Source: Escherichia coli (GTDB taxonomy: Bacteria; Pseudomonadota; Gammaproteobacteria; Enterobacterales; Enterobacteriaceae). Taken from it: a DNA stretch of 64,000 nucleotides. The notes under the pieces were generated by a model that saw only the letters and a list, made by a program, of their open reading frames with translations, ran no database searches and was not told the origin of the DNA. Location of the stretch: NCBI RefSeq assembly GCF_003019035.1, contig NZ_CP027447.1; one strand, given 5' to 3'. A program made the position numbers and the translations under genes. This document shows positions 7,760 to 20,100 of the stretch, piece after piece (positions within the stretch are counted from its first letter, which is position 1; every line of letters begins with the position of its first letter).

Positions 7760-8122
7760 GGGGCTGATTCTGGATTCGACGGGATTTGCGAAACCCAAGG
7801 TGCATGCCGAGGGGCGGTTGGCCTCGTAAAAAGCCGCAAAAAATAGTCGCAAACGACGAAAACTACGCTTTAGCAGCTTAATAACCTGCTTAGAGCCCTC
7901 TCTCCCTAGCCTCCGCTCTTAGGACGGGGATCAAGAGAGGTCAAACCCAAAAGAGATCGCGTGGAAGCCCTGCCTGGGGTTGAAGCGTTAAAACTTAATC
8001 AGGCTAGTTTGTTAGTGGCGTGTCCGTCCGCAGCTGGCAAGCGAATGTAAAGACTGACTAAGCATGTAGTACCGAGGATGTAGGAATTTCGGACGCGGGT
8101 TCAACTCCCGCCAGCTCCACCA
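7760..8122 (+). ncRNA. ssrA: tmRNA (SsrA, 10Sa RNA)
   Basis: 363 nt from GGGGCTGATTCTGGATTCGACGGG to GGTTCAACTCCCGCCAGCTCCACCA; contains the tag-peptide ORF region (GCAAACGACGAAAACTACGCTTTAGCAGCTTAA) and a tRNA-like 3' end. Confidence 0.95.
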
Positions 8123-8289: not shown

Positions 8290-9522
8290 ATGCCAAAGGT
8301 AGCAACAAAACTCACTGACACAGAGATCAAAAAGGCCAAGCCCACAGAGAAAGAGTTCACGCTATGGGATGGAGATGGCTTGTTCCTGCGCATCAAACCA
8401 AGTGGCAAAAAAATCTGGCACCTCGGCTATACCGTTCCATTAACCAAGAAACGGGCCAAAATGAGTCTTGGGTTCTATCCCTACCTGACACTTGCTCAAG
8501 CAAGAGCGCTACGGGATGAATACCTCTCTTTGCTTGCACAGGGTATCGATCCCCAATCCCACAATGAGCAAAAAGCCCAAGCGCTTAAAGATGCCACTGA
8601 ACACACATTCCAGACTGTAGCGAAAAAATGGCTTGATGAAAAAATTAAAACATCAGGCATATCGCAAGATCATGCTAAGGATATCTGGCGTAGCCTTGAA
8701 CGGAACATCTTTCCTACTTTAGGGGATGTTCCCATTAAAGAGATCCGCCCTAAAATGTTAAAACAACACCTTGACCCCATAGAACAAAGGGGCGTACTCG
8801 AAACCTTGCGACGTATAATTTCCCGACTTAATGAAATTTTCCGCTATGCCGCGACAGAAGAACTCATTGAGTTCAACCCCGCTGACAACCTTATCCAACG
8901 TTTTAGTAAACCCAAAAAGCAAAATATGCCTGCGTTGCCGCCAGATGAACTACCCCGTTTCATGACAGCATTATCAAACGCATCTATACGCTTAGAAACA
9001 CGTCTACTAATTGAATGGCAACTTCTTACTTGGGTTCGTCCCGGTGAAGCTGTACGCGCTCGCTGGACTGACATAGACGAAGAAAGCAAGTATTGGAACA
9101 TTCCATCCGATTTCATGAAGATGAAACGTCCTCATAAGGTTCCATTGAGCAAAGAAGCTATACGTATTCTTGAATCCATGAAACCAATCAGCGGTCATCG
9201 TGAGTGGGTTTTCCCCAGCATAAAAAATCCTTTAACACATATGCACGAGCAAACTGCCAACGCCGCATTAATCCGAATGGGCTTAGGTGGAGAACTCGTA
9301 GCACATGGCATGCGTTCTATTGCAAGAACAGCAGCAGAAGAAGCAGGAAAATTTAGGACAGAAGTTCTTGAAGCGGCTCTCGCCCACTCAAAAAAAGATG
9401 AAATCATTGCTGCTTATAACCGTACAGAATATTTAGTCGAGCGTGTCGAGTTAATGCAATGGTGGAGTGATTATCTCCAAATACAAAAATATAAGTCTTT
9501 AACAACTCTGATCGCCAGCTAA
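8290..9522 (+). CDS. P4-family tyrosine integrase (IntA-like, but not the CP4-57 IntA sequence)
   Basis: 410 aa; N-terminal LTDTEIKKAKP...LWDGDGLFLRIKPSGKK arm-binding-type domain typical of P4-like integrases; C-terminal AHGMRSIARTAAEE...LAHS catalytic region; sits immediately 3' of ssrA. Confidence 0.85.
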   Translation: MPKVATKLTDTEIKKAKPTEKEFTLWDGDGLFLRIKPSGKKIWHLGYTVPLTKKRAKMSLGFYPYLTLAQARALRDEYLSLLAQGIDPQSHNEQKAQALKDATEHTFQTVAKKWLDEKIKTSGISQDHAKDIWRSLERNIFPTLGDVPIKEIRPKMLKQHLDPIEQRGVLETLRRIISRLNEIFRYAATEELIEFNPADNLIQRFSKPKKQNMPALPPDELPRFMTALSNASIRLETRLLIEWQLLTWVRPGEAVRARWTDIDEESKYWNIPSDFMKMKRPHKVPLSKEAIRILESMKPISGHREWVFPSIKNPLTHMHEQTANAALIRMGLGGELVAHGMRSIARTAAEEAGKFRTEVLEAALAHSKKDEIIAAYNRTEYLVERVELMQWWSDYLQIQKYKSLTTLIAS

Positions 9523-9679: not shown

Positions 9680-10399
9680 ATGGAAGATTTAGTTTGTAGT
9701 TGGTCACCAAAGCTGATCGTTGATCTTATAAAAAGTATCGCTTGGCCAGTAGTCGTCCTTCTCATCGGCTTCAGTTTTCGAACTCGAATTTTTGAAGTGG
9801 CACGTTCATTTTTTTCTAAAAACACAGTTTCAGAAATATCAGCTACAGTATCAGGTGTATCGGCAAAATTTGTGACAGCAAAGCAAACAACTGAAGTATT
9901 AGAAAGTGCTAGTACCAATGCAGCGAATTTACCAAAGAGTATGAGTATTGAGGCTATAAGAGCGCGACATGAACAGCATAAAACAGAATTCAGCGAAGAG
10001 TTATATCAATCAATAATTAAACATGCTTCCTCTTTAGATATTAATAATGATGAAAAAGTCAAAATTCTGGCACGTGAATTGTCTATTTATCAAGCTATAA
10101 TACGATATATTGACATTAATAAGATATTATTTCGCTCACAATACAATTTATTTTGTTCTATAAATAGTAATGGTGGTCAAATAAATAAAGAAGACGCCAA
10201 TCTTTTTTTTGAGGCGACCAAGAACAACAATAAAGAAGCATTCTCCGATTGGGATTGGATTAAATATATTGCCTATCCTGTTAGTAATAGCCTTATCTAT
10301 GAAGATAATAATTTTTATAAACTTACAGAGTTGGGAAGATCGTATATAGCTTTTATGTCAAAAAATCCACAACTAATCGACGAACTTGCAAAATTATAG
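9680..10399 (+). CDS. hypothetical membrane-anchored protein (island cargo)
   Basis: 239-aa ORF, AT-rich codon usage, one N-terminal hydrophobic segment (IAWPVVVLLIGFSF); no recognisable family motif. Confidence 0.5.
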   Translation: MEDLVCSWSPKLIVDLIKSIAWPVVVLLIGFSFRTRIFEVARSFFSKNTVSEISATVSGVSAKFVTAKQTTEVLESASTNAANLPKSMSIEAIRARHEQHKTEFSEELYQSIIKHASSLDINNDEKVKILARELSIYQAIIRYIDINKILFRSQYNLFCSINSNGGQINKEDANLFFEATKNNNKEAFSDWDWIKYIAYPVSNSLIYEDNNFYKLTELGRSYIAFMSKNPQLIDELAKL

Positions 10400-10629
10400 T
10401 AGGGAATAATATTAAACCCTACTCAATGACTGTTTCAGATCTTGGTTCTGTATCCCATAAATGATCAGGTAAAGTCTAAGCGAATAGCGTTTAACAGGTG
10501 GGATGACTCACTACGTGAACCACCCACCTATAAAAAGGGTTTTTCTTCTGGTGAGTTGTCAATAAAAATGAAGGTTTCCACCTTTCATGCGGACCCTCCT
10601 TAATTTTTTTTGACAAGTTGAGATCGAGA

Positions 10630-11082
10630 CTATTTATCATTACGTTTTTTCATAAAATATTTATAACGTTCATCAGCTTCTTTTTGAAACTTTTCAGCGT
10701 CAAACGTATCAGTTTCTATTTTTATTTTTTGTTTTACCGCTTCATCTAATCTTTTATTTTCTTTCAATCTTTCTTTTTCTACTAATATAAGTTTATAGTA
10801 TTTTAGCTTAATATTAAAACTTGCTTTTGCTAACTCCTTAGCGTCAAAACCTATATTGTATTTTTTAAGAAGTTTCAATATATAATCTATAGTCATTTTT
10901 TTCACTTCCTTTTTTATTTTTTCTTCATGCGCATCTTTTTTTATACTCCCACTTTTTAACCATTGCTTAAATTTATAGCCATTATAATGCTGCCATTGAT
11001 ATATTTCAGCGGCATACATCACCGACAACATACAAACAATAAAAAATACAACCATAAAAACCACACATATTAAATAATACAT
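10630..11082 (-). CDS. hypothetical membrane-anchored Lys-rich coiled-coil protein (last gene of operon)
   Basis: 150 aa; N-terminal TM helix (YYLICVVFMVVFFIVCMLSVMY) followed by a charged helical region; 1-nt gap to the upstream ORF. Confidence 0.5.
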   Translation of the reverse strand: MYYLICVVFMVVFFIVCMLSVMYAAEIYQWQHYNGYKFKQWLKSGSIKKDAHEEKIKKEVKKMTIDYILKLLKKYNIGFDAKELAKASFNIKLKYYKLILVEKERLKENKRLDEAVKQKIKIETDTFDAEKFQKEADERYKYFMKKRNDK

Positions 11083-11083
11083 A

Positions 11084-11320
11084 TCAGCCCCCGCCTTTCC
11101 TTCTATATTGTTCTTTTATTAATGCTACGTGATATTTTTTTGCGTTGCTTATACTTACATCAGCAGAGTTTCTAGCAGAAGCAAAAGCACTTGAAACAAC
11201 AGAAGCAATAATGGCAACTAAGAAAGCAGCAACAAAAAAACCCATCACTGGCCCCATAAAACTAGCCCCACCGTCATCTATTGCTGGTTTTGCTTTTGCT
11301 AATAATGATAATAGGCTCAT
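11084..11320 (-). CDS. hypothetical small membrane protein
   Basis: 78 aa; central hydrophobic segment PVMGFFVAAFLVAIIASVVSSAF; basic Gly-rich C-terminus. Confidence 0.5.
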   Translation of the reverse strand: MSLLSLLAKAKPAIDDGGASFMGPVMGFFVAAFLVAIIASVVSSAFASARNSADVSISNAKKYHVALIKEQYRRKGGG

Positions 11321-11730
11321 ATATTTCTCTCTTCTTCAATGTTTTTAATCGCTGTTTCTATTCTTTGTTTTACAAAGTCTCTAAACACATAACCTATTAT
11401 TCGCGCGTCTTCACATATATCTAACTCATCTTTTTTATGAAAATATAAATCAGCGCTTAAAAGCTCTTCGCTTTGAATATTTAACATTTTACTAGCAAGT
11501 GATATTCTAATAATATTTCGCACTTCTAAATCCAAGCTTGCTCTATCATGCTTATTCAAAAGCTGGAGCGGATGAAAATCTTTTTTTCTTTTCATTTCTT
11601 GCATATCATTATCAAAATCTATCATTAAAAAATGTAAGCAAGTAAAAGACGTATCATAGAAGTTTAAGCGGTTCATCATATCCGCCGTTCCCTCTTTTCG
11701 AGGGTTCGGGTTAGGTCTTAATTTATTCAT
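11317..11730 (-). CDS. hypothetical protein
   Basis: 137 aa; no recognisable motif; 4-nt overlap with the downstream ORF. Confidence 0.5.
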   Translation of the reverse strand: MNKLRPNPNPRKEGTADMMNRLNFYDTSFTCLHFLMIDFDNDMQEMKRKKDFHPLQLLNKHDRASLDLEVRNIIRISLASKMLNIQSEELLSADLYFHKKDELDICEDARIIGYVFRDFVKQRIETAIKNIEEERNI

Positions 11731-12064
11731 CTGCTTTACTCCTTTTCTTGTTGTTTTTTAGCTTCCATTCATTCAATCTTTTATCGCCTTCAACTTTTAA
11801 GAACTCACGCTGATCGTGTATTCTTTTCAGTATTAGATTATTAGTTAACGCTCCTACTAACAAAGAAATATCATTCGCAAAATCTAATGTCTCGATGTTA
11901 TTTTCTCTAACTATTCTTATTAGTTCAGCGCCGGCTTTTATTTTACGTGTCGTATCTTTTTTCCTTTCTTCTGCCTTCATTTCTTGCTCCATTCTATTCA
12001 ATAAGTTTGCTCTTTGCTCAATTTCTTTTTTTAATTTATTATATTTTTCTATATTAAACGCCAT
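11723..12064 (-). CDS. hypothetical coiled-coil, Lys/Glu-rich protein
   Basis: 113 aa; highly charged helical sequence; overlaps neighbours (12064/12054, 11730/11723). Confidence 0.5.
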   Translation of the reverse strand: MAFNIEKYNKLKKEIEQRANLLNRMEQEMKAEERKKDTTRKIKAGAELIRIVRENNIETLDFANDISLLVGALTNNLILKRIHDQREFLKVEGDKRLNEWKLKNNKKRSKADE

Positions 12065-12383
12065 TTTCTGAACCTCTCTTTTCTTTTATCGTAATAAAAA
12101 AGGCAATCAACCCACTGATCAATAAAATTGGTAAAGTTAAAATAAACCCTACCAATAACACTAATGAAAATCCGAGCACGCCGGACATCTCATATAGATT
12201 TCCGAACAATGTGCTTTCGTTTTTATACTCAACCATATTCTGTAAAACAGACCTTTTTTCAATATCTTTTTCTTTTAAAGAATCTTCTCTATATTCATAA
12301 TCTTCACAACTCAAAGAAATTTCCACAGTGTTATCATTCAAATACTCATTATCATAATAGTCGTAATCATTATTCCCAATCAT
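12054..12383 (-). CDS. hypothetical membrane protein with acidic Tyr/Asp-rich N-terminus and C-terminal TM segment
   Basis: 109 aa; hydrophobic stretch GVLGFSLVLLVGFILTLPILLISGLIAFFI; overlapping stop/start with both neighbours. Confidence 0.5.
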   Translation of the reverse strand: MIGNNDYDYYDNEYLNDNTVEISLSCEDYEYREDSLKEKDIEKRSVLQNMVEYKNESTLFGNLYEMSGVLGFSLVLLVGFILTLPILLISGLIAFFITIKEKRGSENGV

Positions 12384-12565
12384 TCTAGATCTCCTTCTAA
12401 CGTGTCATAAACAACAGTAAAATCATTCTCATGAGAAAGAAGATTGTAAGTTATAAATAAGCTTGTCCTATAAACAATATCTGTATTTTCATCCTGTAGT
12501 TTTTGAATAATCAACTTAACAAGATCAGACGCTGCCACTTCAATTTTTTTATCAATATCATTCAT
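12380..12565 (-). CDS. hypothetical small protein (first gene of six-gene island operon)
   Basis: 61-aa ORF; stop overlaps the start of the next ORF (12383/12380); divergent from mobA. Confidence 0.45.
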   Translation of the reverse strand: MNDIDKKIEVAASDLVKLIIQKLQDENTDIVYRTSLFITYNLLSHENDFTVVYDTLEGDLE

Positions 12566-12729
12566 GTTCCACCTCTTTTATTTTTTATGATTTCTGTTAT
12601 ATATATTAAGTAATATAATTATTTATTTAAGTAAAGCGCGATATATATTTTTTTGTTTTTAGAACGCATTTTTCAGATAAAAGGCTCACGTGCGGCGGCT
12701 ATTTTAGTTTTGCTAAAAACTACAATAGC

Positions 12730-12762
12730 GCACTTATACATTCTTCGAATGTGTGCGCCCCA
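12730..12762 (+). other. candidate MobQ-type origin of transfer (inverted repeat plus nick-site-like GTGCGCCC)
   Basis: ACATTC-ttcg-GAATGT inverted repeat immediately followed by GTGCGCCC, resembling the RSF1010 oriT arrangement (inverted repeat then TAAGTGCG/CCCT nick region); about 140 bp upstream of mobA. Confidence 0.45.
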
Positions 12763-12901
12763 TAAATGGGGGTTTACTAACGCAGAAAAATAAAAAGTAA
12801 TATTCGCTTTATGCTCAATATTACTTAATCGCTTTTCAAAAAAGCAAATATATTTTTATTATTTTAAAAAGTATGTGTTTCAATATCAGGAGATAAAAAC
12901 A

Positions 12902-14203
12902 ATGGCAATATTTCATATGAGCGCTCAAACAATAACACGCAGCAAGGGGTATAGTAGCGTAGCTGCGGCAGCTTATCGCCACGGCGAAAAGTTAACGGAC
13001 GAACACACAGGAGAGATCCACGACTACAGCAAAAAGAAAGGTGTTTCAGACAGTGTTATATTAATACCTGAAAGCGCAGACCGTAATTTTTTAAAGCCTG
13101 CGTATTTATGGAACATGATAGAAAAAAGCGAAAAAAGAAAAGATGCGCAGTTAGCTCGCGAGTTTAATATTGCGCTTCCTGTCGAAATGACAGATGAACA
13201 AAAAAAGGCGTTAGCAATAGATTTTTGCCAAGAGCATTTTGTAAAAAATGGAATGATTGCTGATATAGCTTTTCACAAGCTCGATAGCGACAACCCACAT
13301 TTTCATGTAATGCTAACCACCCGCAGCCTTACGCCGGACGGTTCAGAGTTCGGACATAAAGTCAGGGAATGGAACAACAAAGAGCAGCTCGAAGGCTGGC
13401 GCAAGAGCTGGGCTGACACAGCGAACGAGCACATGCAAAAGGCTGGCATCGATGCGCATATAGATCACAGATCACTGAAAGAACAAAAAGCAGAGCTTGA
13501 CGCTATCCTCCCCCCTCTCAGAACGATTGAGCAAGAGGCGCAGGCTATCAGCTTAGACAGACCGCCGACTATCCATAGAGGCCATAGCCGCAATCCAGAG
13601 CGACAAGCACGCTTTGACGTGCTCCAAGAAGTGAAAGTATCACAAGAGGAAAAAGCACTTAACCACATTGAACAGAAACAACTTAAGCCCTCGCCGCTGG
13701 CTCCAGCTTCCTCCCCTGCCGCATCTTTGCAAGATGCTACACAAGGAGGCAATGAAAACAACCCGCAAAATAGACTCGGCGAAGTTGGCGAATATCTTCA
13801 ATCTAAACTCAATAAAGAAGATAAAGCAGATCTTAATACTGATAATGAAATCAAAGTTCACACTACTAAAAATAATAGGGAAAGCAGTTCAGCAGCAGCT
13901 ATAGGTTCAACATCAAATATTAATTTAACCGATGAGAAAACAGATAAGAATCTACACTTAACAGAAGCACAAAAAGAAGAGTTAGAGGATTTAGAAAATA
14001 AAGAAGCAGCAGCGAAGAAAAAAGCTTATCTGATGAGCGGAGCTGCCGTTCCTGAACTTTCTCAAGATTACAAAACACTGTCAAAAAGTGAGTTTAAAAA
14101 TAAGCTTCATACAGCTAAACAATCAATATCATTAACTGAAAAGAGATTTAATGAAGAATGTGAAGCATATGATAACAGAAGAAAACGACCAATACCGCGC
14201 TAA
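12902..14203 (+). CDS. mobA: MobA/MobL-family (MobQ-type) conjugative relaxase
   Basis: N-terminus MAIFHMSAQTITRSKGYSSVAAAAYRHGEKL is the characteristic MobA/MobL signature; HFHVML histidine motif present; Ser/Glu/Lys-rich low-complexity C-terminus; AGGAG RBS 8 nt upstream of ATG 12902. Confidence 0.8.
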   Translation: MAIFHMSAQTITRSKGYSSVAAAAYRHGEKLTDEHTGEIHDYSKKKGVSDSVILIPESADRNFLKPAYLWNMIEKSEKRKDAQLAREFNIALPVEMTDEQKKALAIDFCQEHFVKNGMIADIAFHKLDSDNPHFHVMLTTRSLTPDGSEFGHKVREWNNKEQLEGWRKSWADTANEHMQKAGIDAHIDHRSLKEQKAELDAILPPLRTIEQEAQAISLDRPPTIHRGHSRNPERQARFDVLQEVKVSQEEKALNHIEQKQLKPSPLAPASSPAASLQDATQGGNENNPQNRLGEVGEYLQSKLNKEDKADLNTDNEIKVHTTKNNRESSSAAAIGSTSNINLTDEKTDKNLHLTEAQKEELEDLENKEAAAKKKAYLMSGAAVPELSQDYKTLSKSEFKNKLHTAKQSISLTEKRFNEECEAYDNRRKRPIPR

Positions 14204-14563
14204 GTATTTTGCTCATTTTTTATCCCCAATGAATGACTTAGCGTTATATTTACTTTAACTAATTGATACTATTGATTTATTTTCACCTCACGTCGTATCG
14301 TTTATATCGATCAAAATCGACAAAGTGATAGTTAACACCTATCACAACCAATTCATCGATCGATTAAAACAATTAATACACCGATCGATAAACGAGATTT
14401 AATCGTTAAAAACTATCAATATTAAATAATTGATCTGTTATAACGATCATTTTGCTTGAGAGTAGCCCTCCTCATGGTATGCTCGGAGCGTGGAAGACCG
14501 GGCTACTCACCTTGATATCTTCTTGATTAAGCAAAACTATCGCTCTATGAGGAATGAAATTTT

Positions 14564-15058
14564 ATGAAAACCGAAAACATTATTTTTCTTGTTTGGGCAG
14601 TGATTTTTATCCTGATTCTCTGCCAACTTTTTTATTTTGGCCCTAAAAAAAGAAGATACCTCAATACTTATATAGAGGTATTAGATGGTGATGTCCTCTC
14701 ATATGAATGTCAAAATACCGGCGTAGTTATTGATACTAAAAAAAACACAGTACGTATTTTCAATACATATAAGGACAGCACTTTCAAATACGACAACATC
14801 AGGGAAATAAATTATACGCTATCCGAAGCCGGAAAAATTTATAGCACAAGTAATAATCTAAACTCTATGATAAAGTCCGCTGGAGCTAACAGTAATGAAC
14901 AAATGTTAGCTAATCAGCGTTCCGGTATTTTTATACTGACAGATGATATAAAAAATCCTTCATGGAAAATCAATCTACCAATGAAAAACAAAACATCATC
15001 TACCAATCAGGAGATCTGCGATCGATGGCTTCTCATTTTTAAAAAATACGTTTTATAA
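14564..15058 (+). CDS. hypothetical membrane-anchored protein
   Basis: 164 aa; N-terminal hydrophobic helix IIFLVWAVIFILILCQLFYF; AT-rich; no recognisable motif. Confidence 0.5.
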   Translation: MKTENIIFLVWAVIFILILCQLFYFGPKKRRYLNTYIEVLDGDVLSYECQNTGVVIDTKKNTVRIFNTYKDSTFKYDNIREINYTLSEAGKIYSTSNNLNSMIKSAGANSNEQMLANQRSGIFILTDDIKNPSWKINLPMKNKTSSTNQEICDRWLLIFKKYVL

Positions 15059-15090
15059 CTTTGTTTTTTATTTTTATCTTTGGAGTTGAC

Positions 15091-15468
15091 ATGAAAAAAT
15101 TGATTGCGGCAGCATTTATTATTCTCCCTTTAGCAAGTTGTACTGTTTATGGAAACAAATCCATTAAAGACGAAACGCAGCAAAATATAGCCTCTAAAAT
15201 TATAAAAGGTAAAACTACTCAAAAAGATATCCTTCAACTTTATGGAGAACCTCAGACTAAAGAAACTAACGATGGTAAAGAAATGTGGGGATATTCCGTT
15301 ATGTCCGGTGAATCTCAGATTTCAAATTACATACCGGGATTAGCGTTATTGAAGAATAGCAGCACAGCGCACATGAAAGAACTTGAGATCTTGTTTAAAG
15401 GTGATGTAGTTGAACGCTATACCTTTAGACAAACGGCAAGCAAAGCTTCTCGCGGGTTGTTAGATTAA
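15091..15468 (+). CDS. putative lipoprotein
   Basis: Start chosen at ATG 15091 (GGAG RBS upstream); signal peptide MKKLIAAAFIILPLASC with lipobox L-A-S-C; 125 aa. Confidence 0.55.
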   Translation: MKKLIAAAFIILPLASCTVYGNKSIKDETQQNIASKIIKGKTTQKDILQLYGEPQTKETNDGKEMWGYSVMSGESQISNYIPGLALLKNSSTAHMKELEILFKGDVVERYTFRQTASKASRGLLD

Positions 15469-16469
15469 TTTAAATTAAATACCATTTTATCTTTAAAAAG
15501 AAGTTGGAATAGTCCGACTTCTTTTCTATTTTATCAATAACATGCATTATTTATATTAGTGCCTTATGAAATGGCACCTTACTTTTTATATTTCCCTATC
15601 TGGGGGTTTAACCTTTGTTTTTTATTAAAAAAAATTTTGTACTAGTAGTACTAATTAATTAATTTAAAAATTTTTGGTTTTAAGGTTTTGGGGTTTGTGT
15701 TTTAGCGGGGCGGCTTTCAGCCGTAGTAGTTTTCCTCCGAAGGAGGAAATAGTTTTTCTTTAAGCATTCCCCCCCTACCCCCCACGCCAAAAAGGCTAAA
15801 AAAGAGAGATAGGAGATGCTCATTGCGTCTTGAAAATATTCAGAACGTTTCCATTCTGATACTTCCCCCACGACCCACGCAAACACAAATCATGAAACTT
15901 TCAAACAACTCTCGTTTTACTAAAGAGTCTATGCTACTGTTTGTAAATTTTTTAGATTGTGCGATTCAGGTTGGCAGCTACGCATATCCCGGTTAACCGC
16001 TGCCGCAATATTCTAAGTTTCACCAAACACTCGATGTCCTTCGTACTTAGACCTTGATACAACAAGGGTAATATTATATTGCTTTTGTAGATTAAATGTT
16101 TCTGGAAATGGTATTGACATTTTATCTATGTCAAAGTCGGCGAAATTTGTTTAATCATGCAGATTAGAGGCTTCTGGAAGTGGTATTTAATATTAGTTAA
16201 AAGTCGACGAAGCATTTCTAATCTTTTGTATCTTTATATTATATAAATCTATATATAACACCAGTCAATAGATGAAATCAAAAATATTTTAAAAACATGA
16301 CTAGATGAAAAACAAAAAAAGACCAGATTAAACCCCAGTCTCTTTTTTACTTAATATCAGTTATGTTTTTCATATATAGTTCTAAAACGCTCTGTACGCG
16401 ATTTTGAGACGTTTTACACTGGAAGCGGCGTAATCATATAAATAATAAAATAGAATACTGTAATGATTT

Positions 16470-16685
16470 TTATGCCGCTTGATTACGCGAATAAAAAATC
16501 TTATCATCAATCCATTCGTCAACTTCACTTTCAACAAATGCGATAGTTCTTTCACCAGTCTTGATCGGAGAAGGGAAATCACCCCGGCTAATCAGCCGAT
16601 AGATCCACGCTTTACAAAAACCAGTCTTGTTTAACACTTCGGGTATGCGGATAAGTCTTTTTCTTTCGTTCATATATTTCCTCAT
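16470..16685 (-). CDS. AlpA-family phage-type transcriptional regulator / excisionase-like DNA-binding protein
   Basis: 71-aa ORF; RIPEVLNKTGFCKAWIYRLISRGDFPSP resembles the AlpA/Xis helix-turn-helix region. Confidence 0.7.
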   Translation of the reverse strand: MRKYMNERKRLIRIPEVLNKTGFCKAWIYRLISRGDFPSPIKTGERTIAFVESEVDEWIDDKIFYSRNQAA

Positions 16686-17133
16686 AGTTGTTTTGATGAG
16701 GCTATTATTCGAATATCGCTTATGACGATCAACAACTTTTTTAGCAAAAAGTGCTTTTTTAGTTGACTATTTTAAATTAACAGTCATTTAATCACCTTTG
16801 GAAGTTGAACTCATGAGTTCAACTCCTCACCGCTAGTCATGACATTCAAAATGTGCTTATTTTTTAGCCACAATACTTTTTTTATCCCTTTATTGCACCT
16901 CAATGTAAAATACAAATAATTAATATATTTAATAATCAAATGATTAAAGAGTCGATTACAGGGACGCCAGCCAATCATGATTGGACGGTGTAAGGACAAC
17001 ACTAATAAAAACAGGAAGTTAGCAGTCTCAGCAGGACACCGACCAGACGGTGAGGAGACATAAAAGGATACGCAAAGGAGCCGCGGCCCCTGGTGATATG
17101 AAAGCCCACAGATGTGGGCTTTTTCGTTGATGG

Positions 17134-20100
17134 TCAGAACGACCAGTTCACACCAGCCACTGCGTTCCACGGGGATTCCACACCGGCACCATGGCTATAC
17201 CCCACCCCGAGATGCCCGCTTAACGAACTGCTGAATGAGGCTTTAATACCTGCCTGGTATATTCCACGTCTGCCCGACAAATCATTGACAAAATTACCGT
17301 CATTATTCACTTTCACCCGGTTATCATCGACAAATTCTTTGCGCACAGCCGCCTTCAGCCACGGCTCAACTTCCATGCCGTTCCCCAGACGCATGTTGTA
17401 ACTCAGCGTTGCGCCCAGTTCACGATATATACTGCGGGTATCGACTGATTTCGATTCCATGCCATTGGATAAATGATATTCGGGGTTATCAGCGGTGAAC
17501 CCCGTTAACGATGCATACGGCGTCAGGTTCCAGTTACCATCGGTAAATCGCATCCCGGTTTCAATGTGACCGCCCAGCCCGTTGCTGCGATAACTGCCGT
17601 TGGCGGCTCCACCGCTGCTCATTTTACCGGCTACGTTACTTTCAAAGCGGTTCAGCTTCACGATACCGTCCAGATAGAAACCACTTTCATGTTCCCAGCT
17701 GGCATAGCCCCCCAGAGAATAACTGCCCACACTGCCATGTCCTCCACGATCAAAACCGATATGTGAATGGGAATAACCCATAAAAGCGCCCAGCGTCGCA
17801 ATCCCCTCAGGAATATCATTACGGCTATCGATCCCCACCGTCATTCCGGTCAGCGTCTGCTCAAACCCGGCACCCGCATCGGTGGTGACATTATTACGGG
17901 TGTTATACGTCGTCCCCCAGACATTATTGTTGTGTGGACTCGCTTTCATTATGTTCAACCGCTCGCGAATACTGTTTAGCTCAGCATCAAAGACCAACGG
18001 TAATGTTGCTGCCATATTGAGTACGGCTGCCGTAGAAGGCGTGATGCGTTTCTCCGGGACGGGTGTCGGCGTTGGATCGGGAGTCGGGTCTGGTTTCGGA
18101 TCCGGTTTTGGGTCTGGTTTTGGATCCGGCTTCGGATTTGGGTTGGGGTCCGGGTTGGGTTTGACATCATTGGTCAGGTTCCAGTTGCTGTTGCCGTCGC
18201 TTTTCAGGACATACTCATAGGTCCCAAGATCAACGAAACCGCCGGTATTACCCAGCGTAAACGAAGCATCCCCTCCCCCTGTTTTCACCAGCGTCATCGC
18301 GTCGTCAGACTGAGGGCTGACGCCGGTATCCTGAACAAAGATTTTAAAATTACCAGTGGCGTTGTTGTTGACGACCAGTTGATCGCCCCGGGAGCCTGCA
18401 ACGTTGGTATGCAGGTAGAAATTACCGCTGCCGGAAAGTTCACTGGTTGTCAGCGTATTGTAGATACCGTTAGTTGTGGCAGGCGCTGCTGTTTGTGCTG
18501 ATAAATAAACATCACCGTCGTTGAGGAGCAAACTGTTTACTCTATATTCGCAGTTGCTGGTACCTGCACAGGAATTATTGCTGTTAAGCCAGACACTGCC
18601 CCGGCTGGCAGCCGTCAGGTCGGTAAGCGTCGTATCGACGCCATTTCCGATAGTTAATGTCGCGCTATCGGTAATCCGGATCGCCCCTTCGAGTTTAACT
18701 GGCGTAACATTATCCCGTGGCGTCATTAACGACAGGCTTCCTGTCGCGCCACTGACCGATGCATCCGCCAGCGTACCTGCATAGACGATTGCCGTCCCGC
18801 CAGCGACCTGGAGATCTTCTGCCCGGGCCAGAGCCTGAAACTCATCTTTTGACCGCCCAAGGGTATATTGCCCGCCAGAGTTAACCTTTGTGGCGGAGTC
18901 CTGACCCAGGTTTTGCATTGCACCACCCTTGCCAACCTTGGAGTCACGGGCTTCGGTACCTGCTAATACCAATAAATTACCGCCATTTTCCAGCAGCACA
19001 TTGGTCGCTAAATTGCCGGCAATGGAAAAGGTGCCGTACTGGTGAGTACCGCTGATTTCAATACCGTTAGCCGTGCTCGTCTGGAGAGCGGCACCGCTGT
19101 TCTGGACGATATCTGTCGCTTTGCCATTATCGTTGACTGTCAGCGTACCGCCTTCATTGATCGTTGTTTTTATTGCCTCTCCGTTAGCCGAAACTGTTTG
19201 TATTCCGCCGTCGTTAATCGTTGTCTCATTCGCCACACCCTCGACGATTTGTTCGCCGCCGGTGAGCGTCGTGCCTGTCGCAGTGGCTTTTGTTTTGACG
19301 ATCTCCCGCCCGCCCGCATTGACCTGTGTTTTGACGGAAGAGGTGTCTGACTCCACGGTTAACACGCCGCCATTTGTCAGCAGGATATTGTTCGCCGCAC
19401 CCTGCTCGATGCTGAACGCGACGCCATCAGCGCGTGTCCCTGTGACCCGCGTCGCCCTGGTGGTTGCAACCAACGCGCCCTGGCTACTTTGCTGTATCCC
19501 CGTTGCGCTGCCTTTCTCCCGCACATCGAGTGTGCCGCCGTCATTAAGCACCGAGTTTTCAGCCAGACCGCCCTCATTAACTACCTGTGAACCGCCATTA
19601 ATAATGGAACCTTCCGCTGTCCCGTTTACCATAATTTGTTGTAGGCCAGAGACGATATCGGTATTGATCGCCTTACCATAATTCTGAACGGTTTGCGTAC
19701 CGCCATTGATGTGCGTTTTGTCTGTTGACCCACCATCAACAATTTGTTCACCACTTTCGATATTTGCCTCAGTGGCTAAACCATATACCGTTTGCTTGCC
19801 ACCTTTGATATTTGCTTTATCAGAAGTGGCACTGGCATATATTGTTTGGGTACCCGCACTATTGAGTACAGTGCCAACATCTTTTCCATAAACATCCATT
19901 TTACCGTTGGCATTAATAATCGTATCAACTGCCCGGGAACCAGTAACGACTGTTAATGAGCCAGCGTTTTCCAGCACTACATTTTTAGCTTCTGAATTCC
20001 TGATGTAGAAAGCATCACCATAACTGTTGGTTCCTTCGATAAGTGTTCCGGAAGTCGTGGAAGCAATTAATGCGCCGCCGGATTGTTGCTCAACATGCTT

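What the first reader, a model, noticed from the sequence alone, without database searches (positions are those of the whole stretch)
15500..16400. About 900 bp non-coding stretch in the island with a C-rich tract, a perfect hairpin and a roughly 72-bp tandem duplication
No convincing ORF covers 15470-16470. It contains a GT-rich run (15671-15704), a perfect 8-bp-stem hairpin TTTCCTCC-gaa-GGAGGAAA (15731-15749), the tract CCCCCCCTACCCCCC (15769-15783), and two imperfect direct repeats of about 70 bp (TTCTGGAAATGGTATTGACATTTT...AAAGTCGGCGAA at about 16099-16156 and CTTCTGGAAGTGGTATTTAATATT...AAAGTCGACGAA at about 16171-16223). The first copy includes TTGACAT-N7-ATGTCAA. This could encode an sRNA, carry operator sites for the adjacent AlpA-like regulator, or be a decayed replication or partition site.
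Basis: seen in the sequence. Interest (0 to 1): 0.45.

Follow-up and report, generated by a model that had tools for sequence, protein, structure and literature searches.

The report
ColE1-type replication origin lacking RNA I
The 'empty' 900 bp is the replication origin of a small mobile island: a distant, AT-rich relative of the classic ColE1 plasmid origin, which starts DNA copying from a long RNA primer; this copy has lost the small antisense RNA that normally limits copy number.

Summary
The stretch lies in an 8.7-kb integrative mobilizable element at ssrA (integrase, MobQ relaxase, AlpA). It belongs to a conserved non-coding module found in about 70 loci from Enterobacterales islands and gut metagenomes.

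Full-length relatives show ColE1 anatomy. They have a ~100-nt three-hairpin antisense RNA that matches Rfam RNAI. A model built from these RNAs finds the true RNA I of pPCP1 and other ColE1-like plasmids. A facing promoter lies just beyond its terminator. A 520–590-nt transcript on the window's minus strand shows covarying, strand-specific hairpins. It ends at a G-run followed by GAAAAAC, aligned with ColE1's GGGGGGCGGAGCC…GGAAAAAC origin. Two 2–3-kb plasmids with no Rep gene carry a homologous module.

In the window:
- The C-tract is the G-run of the primer RNA.
- The perfect hairpin sits just past the predicted RNA-to-DNA switch.
- The repeats are a lineage-specific duplication in the remnant of the control region, where the RNA I promoter and two of its three hairpins are deleted.

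Verdict: a ColE1-like origin without RNA I. Whether it still fires is open. It is not an AlpA operator, an oriT or a partition site.

The parts
15752..15759 (-). Predicted origin, the RNA-to-DNA transition. The minus strand reads AGAAAAAC, the counterpart of ColE1 GGAAAAAC.
   Evidence: The motif is invariant in all relatives, including those collected with a pattern that did not contain it. The family profile aligns its end exactly onto GGAAAAAC of pUC/pMB1 and six other ColE1-like origins.
15753..16232 (-). Predicted primer transcript, the RNA II homologue. It is about 480 nt here and 520-590 nt in relatives that keep RNA I.
   Evidence: Lengths from the predicted start to the GAAAAAC motif are. 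The helices favour this strand: A:C mismatches on plus, which are G:U on minus, number 101 against 18, 98 against 11 and 25 against 0. In RNA II sense 95.1% of cells pair against 83.9% in shuffles, with 85 double-change cells against 29.7 and 0/500 shuffles as high.
16240..16268 (-). Predicted RNA II promoter: TTGACT (16268-16263), 17 nt, TATATA (16245-16240), with the start near 16232 (GATAC...).
   Evidence: Read from the sequence. Relatives share the same geometry, TTGACA-17-TA(A/T)A(A/T)A-7-GATACAAAAAAAGCC; for comparison, pMB1 has TTGAGA-17-TAATCT-7-GCAAACAAAAAAACC (sequence verified). The consensus scan does not list it, because the last base of the -10 hexamer is A rather than T.
15769..15783 (-). 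G-run of RNA II next to the origin (GGGGGGUAGGGGGGG).
   Evidence: It aligns to ColE1 CAGGGGGGCGGAGCC, and 10-11 nt separate the G-run from GAAAAAC in both.
15865..15880 (-). Second, upstream G-rich segment of RNA II (GCGUGGGUCGUGGGGG).
   Evidence: It is a direct repeat of the C-rich segment (D3). The profile aligns it to ColE1 GCACGAGGGAGC.
15840..15859 (-). RNA II hairpin UCAGAAUG-GAAA-CGUUCUGA, with the invariant loop region GGAAAC and a covarying stem.
   Evidence: Pair types at the stem positions are GC:20/AU:10/GU:4, AU:14/UA:10/GU:4 and UG:30/UA:4/CG:1. It aligns to the ColE1 hairpin CCAGGGGGAAACGCCUGG followed by UAUCUUUAUA.
15908..15928 (-). RNA II hairpin with an invariant 11-nt loop (UUAGUAAAACG) and a covarying stem.
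   Evidence: Stem pair types are UA:17/CG:12/AU:7 and UA:27/CG:9. The closing pair is U:G in 36 of 36 sequences in RNA II sense.
15973..16004 (-). RNA II helix GGCAGC/GCTGCC as read on plus. Relatives have GACAAC/GTTGTC or GATGGC/GCCACC.
   Evidence: Compensatory changes are visible in the alignments.
15731..15749 (.). The perfect 8-bp hairpin, 2 nt beyond the predicted primer 3' end.
   Evidence: Relatives keep a hairpin here with a different sequence, TTTTCC-GTCA-GGAAAA. Its role is inferred: it is the first DNA to be synthesised, so it may be a primosome-loading or structural element.
15710..15724 (.). Second hairpin downstream of the origin, CGGCT-TTC-AGCCG.
   Evidence: Relatives show the compensatory change CGACT-TTC-AGTCG, with pair counts GC:8, AT:27 and GT:1.
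15639..15651 (.). Palindrome GTACTAGTAGTAC at the far, downstream edge of the conserved module.
   Evidence: It is nearly invariant in relatives. Its function is unknown.
16086..16223 (-). Remnant of the RNA I / RNA II 5' control region, duplicated in tandem (units 16086-16156 and 16158-16223). Only the piece that matches the loop of RNA I stem-loop 2, AAAGTCG(G/A)CGAA, survives.
   Evidence: Repeat blocks are. The alignment with full-length relatives shows loss of the TTGACA-17-TAATAC promoter, stem-loop 1 and the terminator stem-loop. L003 has a single unit. The window has no RNA I match to Rfam or to model R1.
16314..16347 (-). Intrinsic terminator of alpA, which lies upstream of RNA II and points the same way. 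It marks the right-hand limit of the origin module.
   Evidence: alpA (16470-16685, minus) matches Pfam Phage_AlpA at E = 5e-18.
15496..15525 (+). Terminator of the upstream gene 15061-15468. It is not part of the origin.

Best explanation
The stretch is the vegetative replication origin of the 8.7-kb integrative mobilizable element inserted at ssrA. It is a divergent, AT-rich member of the ColE1 type of origin, which needs no Rep protein.

Proposed mechanism, with steps marked as shown or inferred:
1. A promoter at 16268-16240 on the minus strand starts a ~480-nt primer transcript, the RNA II homologue. This is predicted from sequence and from the shared geometry in relatives.
2. The transcript folds into conserved hairpins. 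This is shown by covariation and by G:U wobbles specific to that strand.
3. This is inferred from the aligned ColE1 motifs.
4. RNase H cuts the hybrid there and DNA polymerase I extends leftwards through the two hairpins at 15749-15710. This is inferred from the established ColE1 mechanism.

Full-length relatives also encode a ~100-nt three-hairpin antisense RNA (the RNA I homologue). It covers the first ~100 nt of RNA II and would set copy number and incompatibility. In the window's lineage, the RNA I promoter, stem-loop 1 and the terminator stem-loop have been deleted. This copy therefore lacks antisense control.

I think it more likely than not (about 55%) that the origin can still prime replication of the excised circle. 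Its rate would then be set by the RNA II promoter, or by read-through from the co-oriented alpA gene just upstream. Otherwise it is a recently disabled origin.
For: The RNA I homologue in relatives:
- Rfam RNAI (RF00106) matches it over the whole model 1-102, at 41-42 bits and E = 1.5e-4 to 3.6e-4.
- Model R1 was built from the island sequences plus two small plasmids. It finds the genuine RNA I of canonical ColE1-like plasmids at the correct position and strand: pPCP1 43.9 bits, E = 6e-7; others 2e-5, 7e-5 and 0.012.
- Only the loops of RNA I vary. At least 14 stem-loop 1 loop sequences sit on nearly invariant stems, as expected for kissing-loop specificity.
- One-sided changes in RNA I stems are all A-U to G-U on the plus strand.

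The link to ColE1 origins:
- The family profile, in RNA II sense, matches two small circular plasmids over about 510 nt: 3086 bp at E = 2.7e-26 and 2328 bp at E = 3.9e-24.
- The only sizeable ORFs on those plasmids are weak tyrosine-recombinase-like hits, with no Rep.
- A profile of seven canonical ColE1 origins matches those same plasmids, on the same strand and colinearly, at E = 1.7e-4 and 1.1e-3.
- The family profile hits all 7 canonical origins weakly, colinearly and in the right orientation, ending at GGAAAAAC (E = 0.018-1.6). The alignment pairs the GGAAACG-loop hairpin, UAUCUUUAUA, UUUUUGU and the G-run-GCGGAGCC-GAAAAAC segment.

The primer transcript:
- Predicted RNA II is 519-590 nt in relatives that keep RNA I, with a mode of 550-562 nt. 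ColE1 RNA II is about 550 nt (PMC8683028).
- RNA II-sense helices covary: 95.1% of cells pair against 83.9% in shuffles, 0/500 shuffles are as high, and slid controls pair 40-61%.
- These helices need the minus strand.

Context:
- The element has an integrase, a MobA/MobL relaxase and AlpA, and no detectable Rep.
- An ssrA-like attR core lies at 16812-16830.
Against: - The Rfam RNAI hits are below the curated gathering score (42 against 47 bits), and only one RNA I variant passes the filters.
- A sequence profile of canonical ColE1 origins does not find the family directly. Homology therefore rests on structure, on architecture and on a transitive link through two small plasmids.
- Model R1 included those two plasmids in its training set, and its E-values are rough.
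- The predicted RNA II -10 hexamer ends in A, not T, and the promoter scan does not list it.
- The window's copy lacks RNA I and the first ~100 nt of RNA II. In ColE1 those nucleotides take part in the folding pathway that permits primer formation, so this copy may be inactive.
- Conservation between the two RNA I-less sub-lineages is 87% for the RNA II body and 96% for the hairpins. That is not clearly above the neighbouring genes (mobQ 94%, DUF4755 97%), so it does not prove selection.
- No expression or replication data were available.
Confidence: 0.82

Rival explanations
1. The stretch is a dead relic. It descends from a ColE1-type origin, but loss of the RNA I gene and of the RNA II 5' domain inactivated it. 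The island now relies only on chromosomal replication. This rival shares the ancestry claim of the best explanation and differs only on present activity.
For: The window has no RNA I and about 110-150 nt are deleted relative to full-length relatives. A tandem duplication and extra GT-rich insertions (15671-15704) look like drift. The origin body is no better conserved than the flanking genes. From my own knowledge of ColE1, the 5' domain of RNA II guides the folding needed for primer formation.
Against: The RNA I-less form occurs in at least two sub-lineages, in several strains and metagenomes, and keeps the promoter, all RNA II helices, both G-runs and the GAAAAAC motif. Within that lineage, one helix pair varies among G:U, A-U and G-C. 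From memory, engineered ColE1 derivatives without RNA I still replicate, with copy number set by the primer promoter (Panayotatos 1984; not checked here).
Confidence: 0.4
2. The stretch encodes a free-standing regulatory RNA, or several, that controls island genes and has nothing to do with replication.
For: A minus-strand RNA with conserved structure is supported. Relatives carry a small antisense RNA gene with its own promoter and terminator.
Against: The antisense pair, the ~550-nt length, the G-run-GAAAAAC end motif and the homology to plasmids without a Rep gene all match the ColE1 primer system point by point. No conserved target gene lies next to the module, and its neighbours and orientation differ between islands.
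Confidence: 0.06
3. The stretch is a conjugation-related single-strand element: an oriT, a single-strand initiation site, or an Frpo-like single-stranded promoter used after transfer.
For: The module occurs only in mobilizable or conjugative islands, and in one of them it lies in the 1.6-kb gap upstream of mobQ. It has strand-specific hairpins. Both strands fold better than shuffles as ssDNA, with z = -3.1 and -3.6.
Against: A nick region resembling RSF1010's lies elsewhere, at about 12706-12760 just upstream of mobQ. The module is shared by islands with unrelated relaxases. It does not form the single long fold-back hairpin carrying -35/-10 boxes that defines Frpo (features from PMC11541004). 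It gave no blastn match to any plasmid, so none to plasmids carrying leading regions. The ColE1 correspondences explain all conserved blocks.
Confidence: 0.04
4. The stretch is an operator or regulatory region bound by the adjacent AlpA-like protein, with the repeats as binding sites.
For: alpA is adjacent in the small islands, and the origin-alpA pair travels together between otherwise unrelated islands. There are direct repeats and a palindrome.
Against: The repeats are absent from L003 and from all full-length relatives. The module occurs without an adjacent alpA in the conjugative islands. It lies downstream of alpA, beyond alpA's terminator. AlpA could still modulate the RNA II promoter, which was not tested.
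Confidence: 0.03

Closest known systems
ColE1-like (ColE1/pMB1/p15A/pPCP1) RNA-primed theta origins with antisense RNA I (Rfam RF00106), as surveyed in PMC8683028
   Same: - A ~550-nt primer transcript in full-length relatives.
[quoted passage not shown]
- The primer promoter lies a few nucleotides beyond the antisense terminator.
- A G-run, a GCGRAGC-like segment and GAAAAAC sit at the RNA-to-DNA switch.
- A hairpin with a GGAAACG loop lies about 100 nt upstream of the origin.
- There is no Rep gene.
- The host range is Enterobacterales.
   Different: - The module is about 30-38% G+C, and the canonical sequence profile cannot detect it.
- Nearly all copies found lie in chromosomal islands that carry integrases. 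blastn found no full-length copy in 72,556 plasmid records, only partial matches in three.
- No rom/rop gene was seen.
- The window's own copy has no RNA I and a primer shortened to about 480 nt.
Small Klebsiella plasmids NZ_CP110175.1 (3086 bp) and NZ_CP072952.1 (2328 bp)
   Same: They carry a homologous RNA I / RNA II module (E = 2.7e-26 and 3.9e-24 over about 510 nt; RNA I model 68-70 bits). They have no Rep gene, and a tyrosine-recombinase-like ORF sits next to the origin.
   Different: They are free circular replicons with higher G+C, and they keep RNA I. They also score against the canonical ColE1 profile (E = 1.7e-4 and 1.1e-3), so they bridge the two groups.
Replication functions of other integrative elements (for example the relaxase-driven rolling-circle replication and single-strand origin of ICEBs1, PMC4595007)
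   Same: It is a cis-acting, non-coding replication element carried by an integrative element. It presumably serves replication after excision.
   Different: ICEBs1 uses its relaxase and a single-strand origin for rolling-circle replication. Here the anatomy is that of RNA-primed theta replication, which depends on host RNA polymerase, RNase H and DNA polymerase I.

Membership tests
ColE1-like RNA-primed origin | A long (~550 nt) primer transcript (RNA II) running from its own promoter to the origin | tested here: met
   Structure: minus-strand RNA structure is supported by covariation and strand-specific G:U pairs.
Length: predicted RNA II is 519-590 nt in full-length relatives and 474-479 nt in the window's lineage.
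Not shown: transcription itself was not demonstrated. The promoter is predicted only, and its -10 hexamer ends in A.
ColE1-like RNA-primed origin | An origin site with a G-run followed by GAAAAAC at the primer's 3' end (ColE1 CAGGGGGGCGGAGCCTATGGAAAAAC) | tested here: met
   The window's minus strand reads GGGGGGTAGGGGGGGAATGCTTAAAGAAAAAC. One relative reads GGAGAGGCGAAGCTCTAGAAAAAC. The profile alignments end exactly on GGAAAAAC in 7 of 7 canonical origins, though each alignment is weak on its own (E = 0.018-1.6).
ColE1-like RNA-primed origin | [quoted passage not shown] | tested here: not met
   This feature is not met in the window. There is no Rfam RNAI hit at E <= 1 in 10000-22000 and no R1 hit better than 19 bits, which falls on the alpA terminator. 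The promoter, stem-loop 1 and stem-loop 3 are deleted.

It is met in full-length relatives, with Rfam RNAI at 41-42 bits (gathering score 47) and reciprocal hits of R1 on the true RNA I genes.
ColE1-like RNA-primed origin | Sequence homology to known ColE1 origins | tested here: inconclusive
   The canonical nhmmer profile finds nothing in the family. The link is transitive: family to small plasmids at E = 1e-24 to 1e-26, and canonical profile to the same plasmids at E = 1e-3 to 1e-4.
ColE1-like RNA-primed origin | No plasmid-encoded initiator, and dependence on host RNA polymerase, RNase H and DNA polymerase I | not testable with these tools
   No Rep family was detected in the element's ORFs or in the two small plasmids. 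Several ORFs have no family assignment. Host-factor dependence needs genetics.
Frpo / ssi single-stranded promoter of leading regions | One long fold-back hairpin in the transferred strand that rebuilds -35 and -10 boxes, placed upstream of leading-region genes (PMC11541004) | tested here: not met
   Folding gives only local hairpins, and the global consensus folds are weak on both strands. The neighbouring genes are not consistently oriented. It gave no blastn match to any plasmid, so none to plasmids carrying known Frpo.
MobQ-type oriT | An inverted repeat followed by a nick core resembling TAAGTGCG|CCCT (RSF1010; recalled from memory) | tested here: not met
   Such a site lies at about 12706-12760, upstream of mobQ, and not in 15500-16400. 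The module is also present in an island with a different relaxase.

The most novel reading that the evidence does not exclude
A whole, so far unrecognised clade of ColE1-type origins lives inside chromosomal integrative elements of Enterobacterales, both small mobilizable islands and large type-IV-secretion conjugative islands, rather than on plasmids.

Their RNA I loops diversify as incompatibility determinants between co-resident islands. In the window's lineage the antisense gene was deleted, but the RNA II segment complementary to the loop of RNA I stem-loop 2 was kept and duplicated. Replication of this small island could then be unrestrained after excision. Alternatively, it could be held in check in trans by the RNA I of a helper conjugative island that carries the full module.
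Probability: 0.2. Interest if true: 0.7.

Novelty: new variant of a known kind. Interest (0 to 1): 0.5.

Why it matters
Integrative mobilizable and conjugative elements are usually thought to replicate passively, or by relaxase-driven rolling-circle replication. Finding a ColE1-type, Rep-independent origin in them has several consequences.

- It gives these elements a plasmid-like phase that protein-based annotation cannot see.
- It explains why 0.8-1.6-kb 'empty' gaps recur in such islands.
- It extends the ColE1 family to an AT-rich branch that canonical profiles miss.
- It offers a testable source of incompatibility between islands, through the hypervariable RNA I loops.
- An integrated primer-RNA origin that has lost its antisense brake is also a natural case for asking how a chromosome tolerates an R-loop-forming origin.

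For annotating this window, it turns an unexplained non-coding stretch into a named feature with predicted coordinates.

Tried and rejected
- **Large structured RNA on the plus strand.** RNAalifold on the global alignment was weak on both strands, at -20 and -23 kcal/mol over 566 columns. Only local helices hold.
- **Coding potential.** Indels break the reading frames in close relatives.
- **Frpo, ssi or oriT.** I considered these at length because the module sits in mobile islands and, in L004, next to mobQ. I rejected them for three reasons: the nick-like site lies elsewhere, there is no long fold-back hairpin, and the ColE1 correspondences explain the conserved blocks.
- **A plus-strand sRNA ending at the perfect hairpin.** I first read TTGTAC-N17-TAATTT, hairpins H1-H2 and the following T-run this way. 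The promoter is weak, and the apparent plus-strand G:T excess there comes mostly from one extension pair and from misalignment. I now read these hairpins as DNA just downstream of the origin.
- **Rfam on the window alone.** It gave only a chance L20-leader hit. The decisive RNAI match appeared only when full-length relatives were scanned.
- **nhmmer with the canonical ColE1 profile.** It gave no hits on the family, and with --max only E > 10 hits.
- **blastn of the core against plasmids and phages.** No match.
- **Direct-repeat search for attL/attR.** It found nothing at seed 12. The attR-like core was found by eye.
- **Literature.** Searches found no description of ColE1-like origins in integrative elements. 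The library lacks most subscription-journal papers.
Full report
**1. What is in the window**

The window is E. coli-like chromosome. The tmRNA gene ssrA lies at 7760-8122. It is followed by a low-G+C segment of about 30-38% running from roughly 9.4 to 16.8 kb. This segment holds:
- a tyrosine integrase at 8290-9522;
- several small ORFs of unknown function;
- a MobA/MobL (MobQ) relaxase at 12875-14203;
- a DUF4755 protein at 14564-15058;
- a 135-aa ORF at 15061-15468;
- a 71-aa AlpA protein on the minus strand at 16470-16685.

Just beyond alpA, GAGTTCAACTCCTCACCGC at 16812-16830 echoes the 3' end of ssrA, GGGTTCAACTCCCGCCAGC. The segment is therefore an integrative mobilizable element of about 8.7 kb, and the finding lies inside it near its right end. 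The same element occurs in E. coli SCU-301 (98.5% identity over the finding), in two chicken isolates (95%) and in PigCaeca_1 (85%), always after ssrA.

**2. Checking the observation**

The hairpin (15731-15749), the C-tract (15769-15783), the GT-rich run (15671-15704) and TTGACAT-N7-ATGTCAA (16114-16134) are all present as described.

No ORF exceeds 68 aa. The two longest are disrupted by 1-nt and 9-nt indels in relatives.

The '72-bp tandem duplication' holds only as two block pairs, at 83% and 75% identity. Tandem Repeats Finder reports nothing. PigCaeca_1 has one unit where the window has two, so the duplication is recent and specific to this lineage.

Two parts of the 900 bp belong to the neighbouring genes: the terminator of the upstream gene (15496-15525) and the alpA terminator (16347-16314, minus strand).

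**3. The region is one member of a large conserved family**

A sensitive search found the core in 122 of 5426 complete E. coli genomes, always chromosomal, and in no phage or plasmid record.

The contexts differ:
- a small island at tRNA-Phe with an unrelated integrase and relaxase but a similar alpA;
- large islands with type IV pilus genes, DotA/TraY, MobQ and RepL, where the module fills non-coding gaps of 0.9-1.6 kb with no adjacent alpA.

Pattern scans added 12 loci from other Enterobacterales genomes (Pluralibacter, Yersinia, Klebsiella, Enterobacter, Erwinia, Brenneria and others), one enterobacterial-type contig labelled a Streptococcus MAG, two chance hits, and 52 metagenome or viral contigs. 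These fall into 37 clusters at 97% identity.

Most relatives carry about 850 nt of conserved non-coding DNA. Compared with them, the window lacks a block that holds a strong promoter (TTGACA-17-TAATAC), two hairpins and a terminator.

**4. Identification**

*The antisense RNA.* Rfam found nothing in the window. On full-length relatives it matched the block missing from the window to RNAI (RF00106), the antisense RNA of ColE1-type plasmids. The match covers the whole model, at 41-42 bits and E = 1.5e-4 to 3.6e-4, below the curated cut-off of 47 bits.

I tested this lead in several independent ways.

- (a) *Reciprocal search.* A covariance model was built from 33 variants of the island RNA, including two small plasmids. 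It finds the true RNA I genes of canonical ColE1-like plasmids at the expected place and strand: pPCP1 of Yersinia pestis at 43.9 bits and E = 6e-7, and three others at 2e-5, 7e-5 and 0.012.
- (b) *Geometry.* On the opposite strand, a few nucleotides beyond the antisense terminator, all relatives have TTGAC(A/T)-17-TA(A/T)A(A/T)A-7-GATACAAAAAAAGCC. This mirrors the pMB1 primer promoter and start, TTGAGA-17-TAATCT-7-GCAAACAAAAAAACC. My recalled pMB1 sequence was verified as 100% identical to NC_009716.1.
- (c) *Length.* From that start to the invariant AGAAAAAC is 519-590 nt, with a mode of 550-562 nt. The ColE1 primer is about 550 nt (PMC8683028).
- (d) *Origin motifs.* The family profile aligns its last ~150 positions to all seven canonical origins in the right orientation and ends on GGAAAAAC. 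Each alignment is weak (E = 0.018-1.6), but together they pair the GGAAACG-loop hairpin, UAUCUUUAUA, UUUUUGU and G-run-GCGGAGCC-GAAAAAC.
- (e) *Bridge sequences.* Two circular Klebsiella plasmids of 3086 and 2328 bp match the family profile over about 510 nt (E = 2.7e-26 and 3.9e-24). They also match the canonical ColE1 profile colinearly (E = 1.7e-4 and 1.1e-3). Their only sizeable ORFs look like tyrosine recombinases, and neither has a Rep gene.
- (f) *Strand-specific structure.* The middle of the module forms helices that need the window's minus strand. A:C mismatches on plus, which are G:U on minus, outnumber G:T by 101 to 18, 98 to 11 and 25 to 0 in three helices.
- In RNA II sense, 95.1% of cells pair against 83.9% in shuffles. 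There are 85 double-change cells against 29.7, with 0/500 shuffles as high. Slid controls pair only 40-61%.
- The antisense RNA shows the opposite strand preference: every one-sided change is A-U to G-U on plus, and its terminator keeps a U:G pair.
- (g) *Loop diversification.* The loop of antisense stem-loop 1 has at least 14 different sequences on nearly invariant stems. This is the pattern expected for kissing-loop specificity, which sets incompatibility in ColE1-type plasmids.

*Weaknesses.* The canonical sequence profile alone does not detect the family. The Rfam score is below the gathering threshold. The predicted primer promoter has A at the last -10 position and is not listed by the consensus scan. 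Nothing was measured experimentally.

**5. Reading the window with this key**

On the minus strand:
- the promoter is at 16268-16240, with the start near 16232;
- the primer transcript runs to about 15753;
- its hairpins are at 15928-15908 (invariant loop UUAGUAAAACG) and 15859-15840 (GGAAAC loop);
- the predicted RNA-to-DNA switch is AGAAAAAC at 15759-15752.

Their role, for example in primosome loading, is only inferred. The GT-rich run is a lineage-specific expansion further downstream.

The two repeats occupy the place of the RNA I gene and the 5' domain of RNA II. Only AAAGTCG(G/A)CGAA survives, which matches the loop of stem-loop 2, and it is present twice.

The window's lineage (window, SCU-301, PigCaeca_1 and several metagenome contigs) therefore has a primer of 400-479 nt and no antisense gene.

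**6. Mechanism and its uncertainty**

I commit to the ColE1 mechanism: host RNA polymerase makes the primer, a persistent hybrid forms at the G-rich end, RNase H cuts, and DNA polymerase I extends. Structure, strand and motif correspondence are shown here. Transcription, hybrid formation and host-factor dependence are inferred from the family.

Whether this RNA I-less copy is active is open. For activity:
- the form occurs in two sub-lineages with all primer features intact;
- from memory, engineered ColE1 derivatives without RNA I replicate under control of the primer promoter.

Against activity:
- the lost 5' domain contributes to productive folding in ColE1;
- conservation of the origin body (87%) is not above that of neighbouring genes.

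alpA lies directly upstream, points the same way and is separated only by its terminator. Read-through could therefore couple excision control to priming. This is speculation.

**7. Alternatives**

An oriT is unlikely. A nick region resembling RSF1010's sits upstream of mobQ at about 12706-12760, and the module is shared by islands with unrelated relaxases.

An Frpo-like single-strand promoter is not supported. There is no long fold-back hairpin and no consistent downstream genes (criteria from PMC11541004).

AlpA operators are not supported by the module's distribution or position, though binding was not tested.

A stand-alone regulatory RNA cannot be excluded, but it explains fewer of the features.

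**8. Novelty**

The mechanism is textbook. Three things appear to be new:
- a divergent AT-rich branch of ColE1-type origins that canonical profiles miss;
- its residence in chromosomal integrative elements rather than plasmids;
- a natural lineage without RNA I.

The survey of ColE1-like replicons I read covered plasmids only (PMC8683028). Three literature searches found no description of such origins in integrative elements, but the library is incomplete.

I rate this a new variant of a known kind, of moderate interest.

Noticed in passing
window 12706-12760: A probable MobQ oriT lies just upstream of mobQ. It has the inverted repeat TAGTTTTGCTAAAAACTA and a near-palindrome, GCGCAC...ACATTC-TTC-GAATGT...GTGCGC. 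The minus strand reads TAAGTGCGC, which is the RSF1010 nick core as I recall it, and the plus strand reads GTGCGCCCC. Which strand is nicked is unclear.
   Followed up: partly
relatives, e.g. L004 8488-8588, L002 8469-8572, L005 9561-9664: The loop of RNA I stem-loop 1 is hypervariable, with at least 14 different 6-7-nt loops, while the stems are nearly invariant. The loops of stem-loops 2 and 3 also vary. This looks like diversifying selection on incompatibility specificity.
   Followed up: partly
window 16370-16420: A conserved block lies between the alpA stop codon and its terminator: TTCATATATAG..TAAAACGCTCTGTACGCGATTTTGAGACGTTTTA, with a 7-bp inverted repeat TAAAACG/CGTTTTA. It is shared with small islands that are otherwise unrelated (L002, L007, L015, L017, L020). 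Its function is unknown.
   Followed up: no
window 15639-15651: The palindrome GTACTAGTAGTAC lies about 100 nt beyond the predicted origin and is nearly invariant across the family. It could be a protein-binding or termination site. It remains unexplained.
   Followed up: no
L074 (NZ_CP110175.1, 3086 bp) and L075 (NZ_CP072952.1, 2328 bp): These tiny circular Klebsiella plasmids consist of a homologous RNA I / RNA II module plus a tyrosine-recombinase-like ORF, and PLSDB gives them no replicon type. They may be free forms of integrative elements or plasmids with a resolvase.
   Followed up: partly
window 16812-16830: GAGTTCAACTCCTCACCGC resembles the ssrA 3' end at 8097-8115 and probably marks attR of the 8.7-kb element. 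Next to it lies the ypjA autotransporter, which belongs to the older CP4-57-like island.
   Followed up: partly
L018 and L019 (Affinibrenneria salicis, same contig): Two identical, oppositely oriented copies of the module have their origin-distal end replaced by unrelated DNA at ...TAGAATTTTATCAGC. This suggests an insertion or rearrangement junction.
   Followed up: no
L008 (JAGZKI010000065.1) and L076 (CP088875.1): A contig labelled as a Streptococcus parasanguinis MAG carries the enterobacterial module, which is probably a binning error. A record described as a 393-kb E. coli 'plasmid' carries the conjugative-island type of the module next to DotA/TraY.
   Followed up: no
window 15560-15578: The hairpin GTGCC-TTATGAAAT-GGCAC followed by a T-rich run is conserved in many but not all relatives. 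It lies just outside the origin module, at its downstream edge.
   Followed up: no
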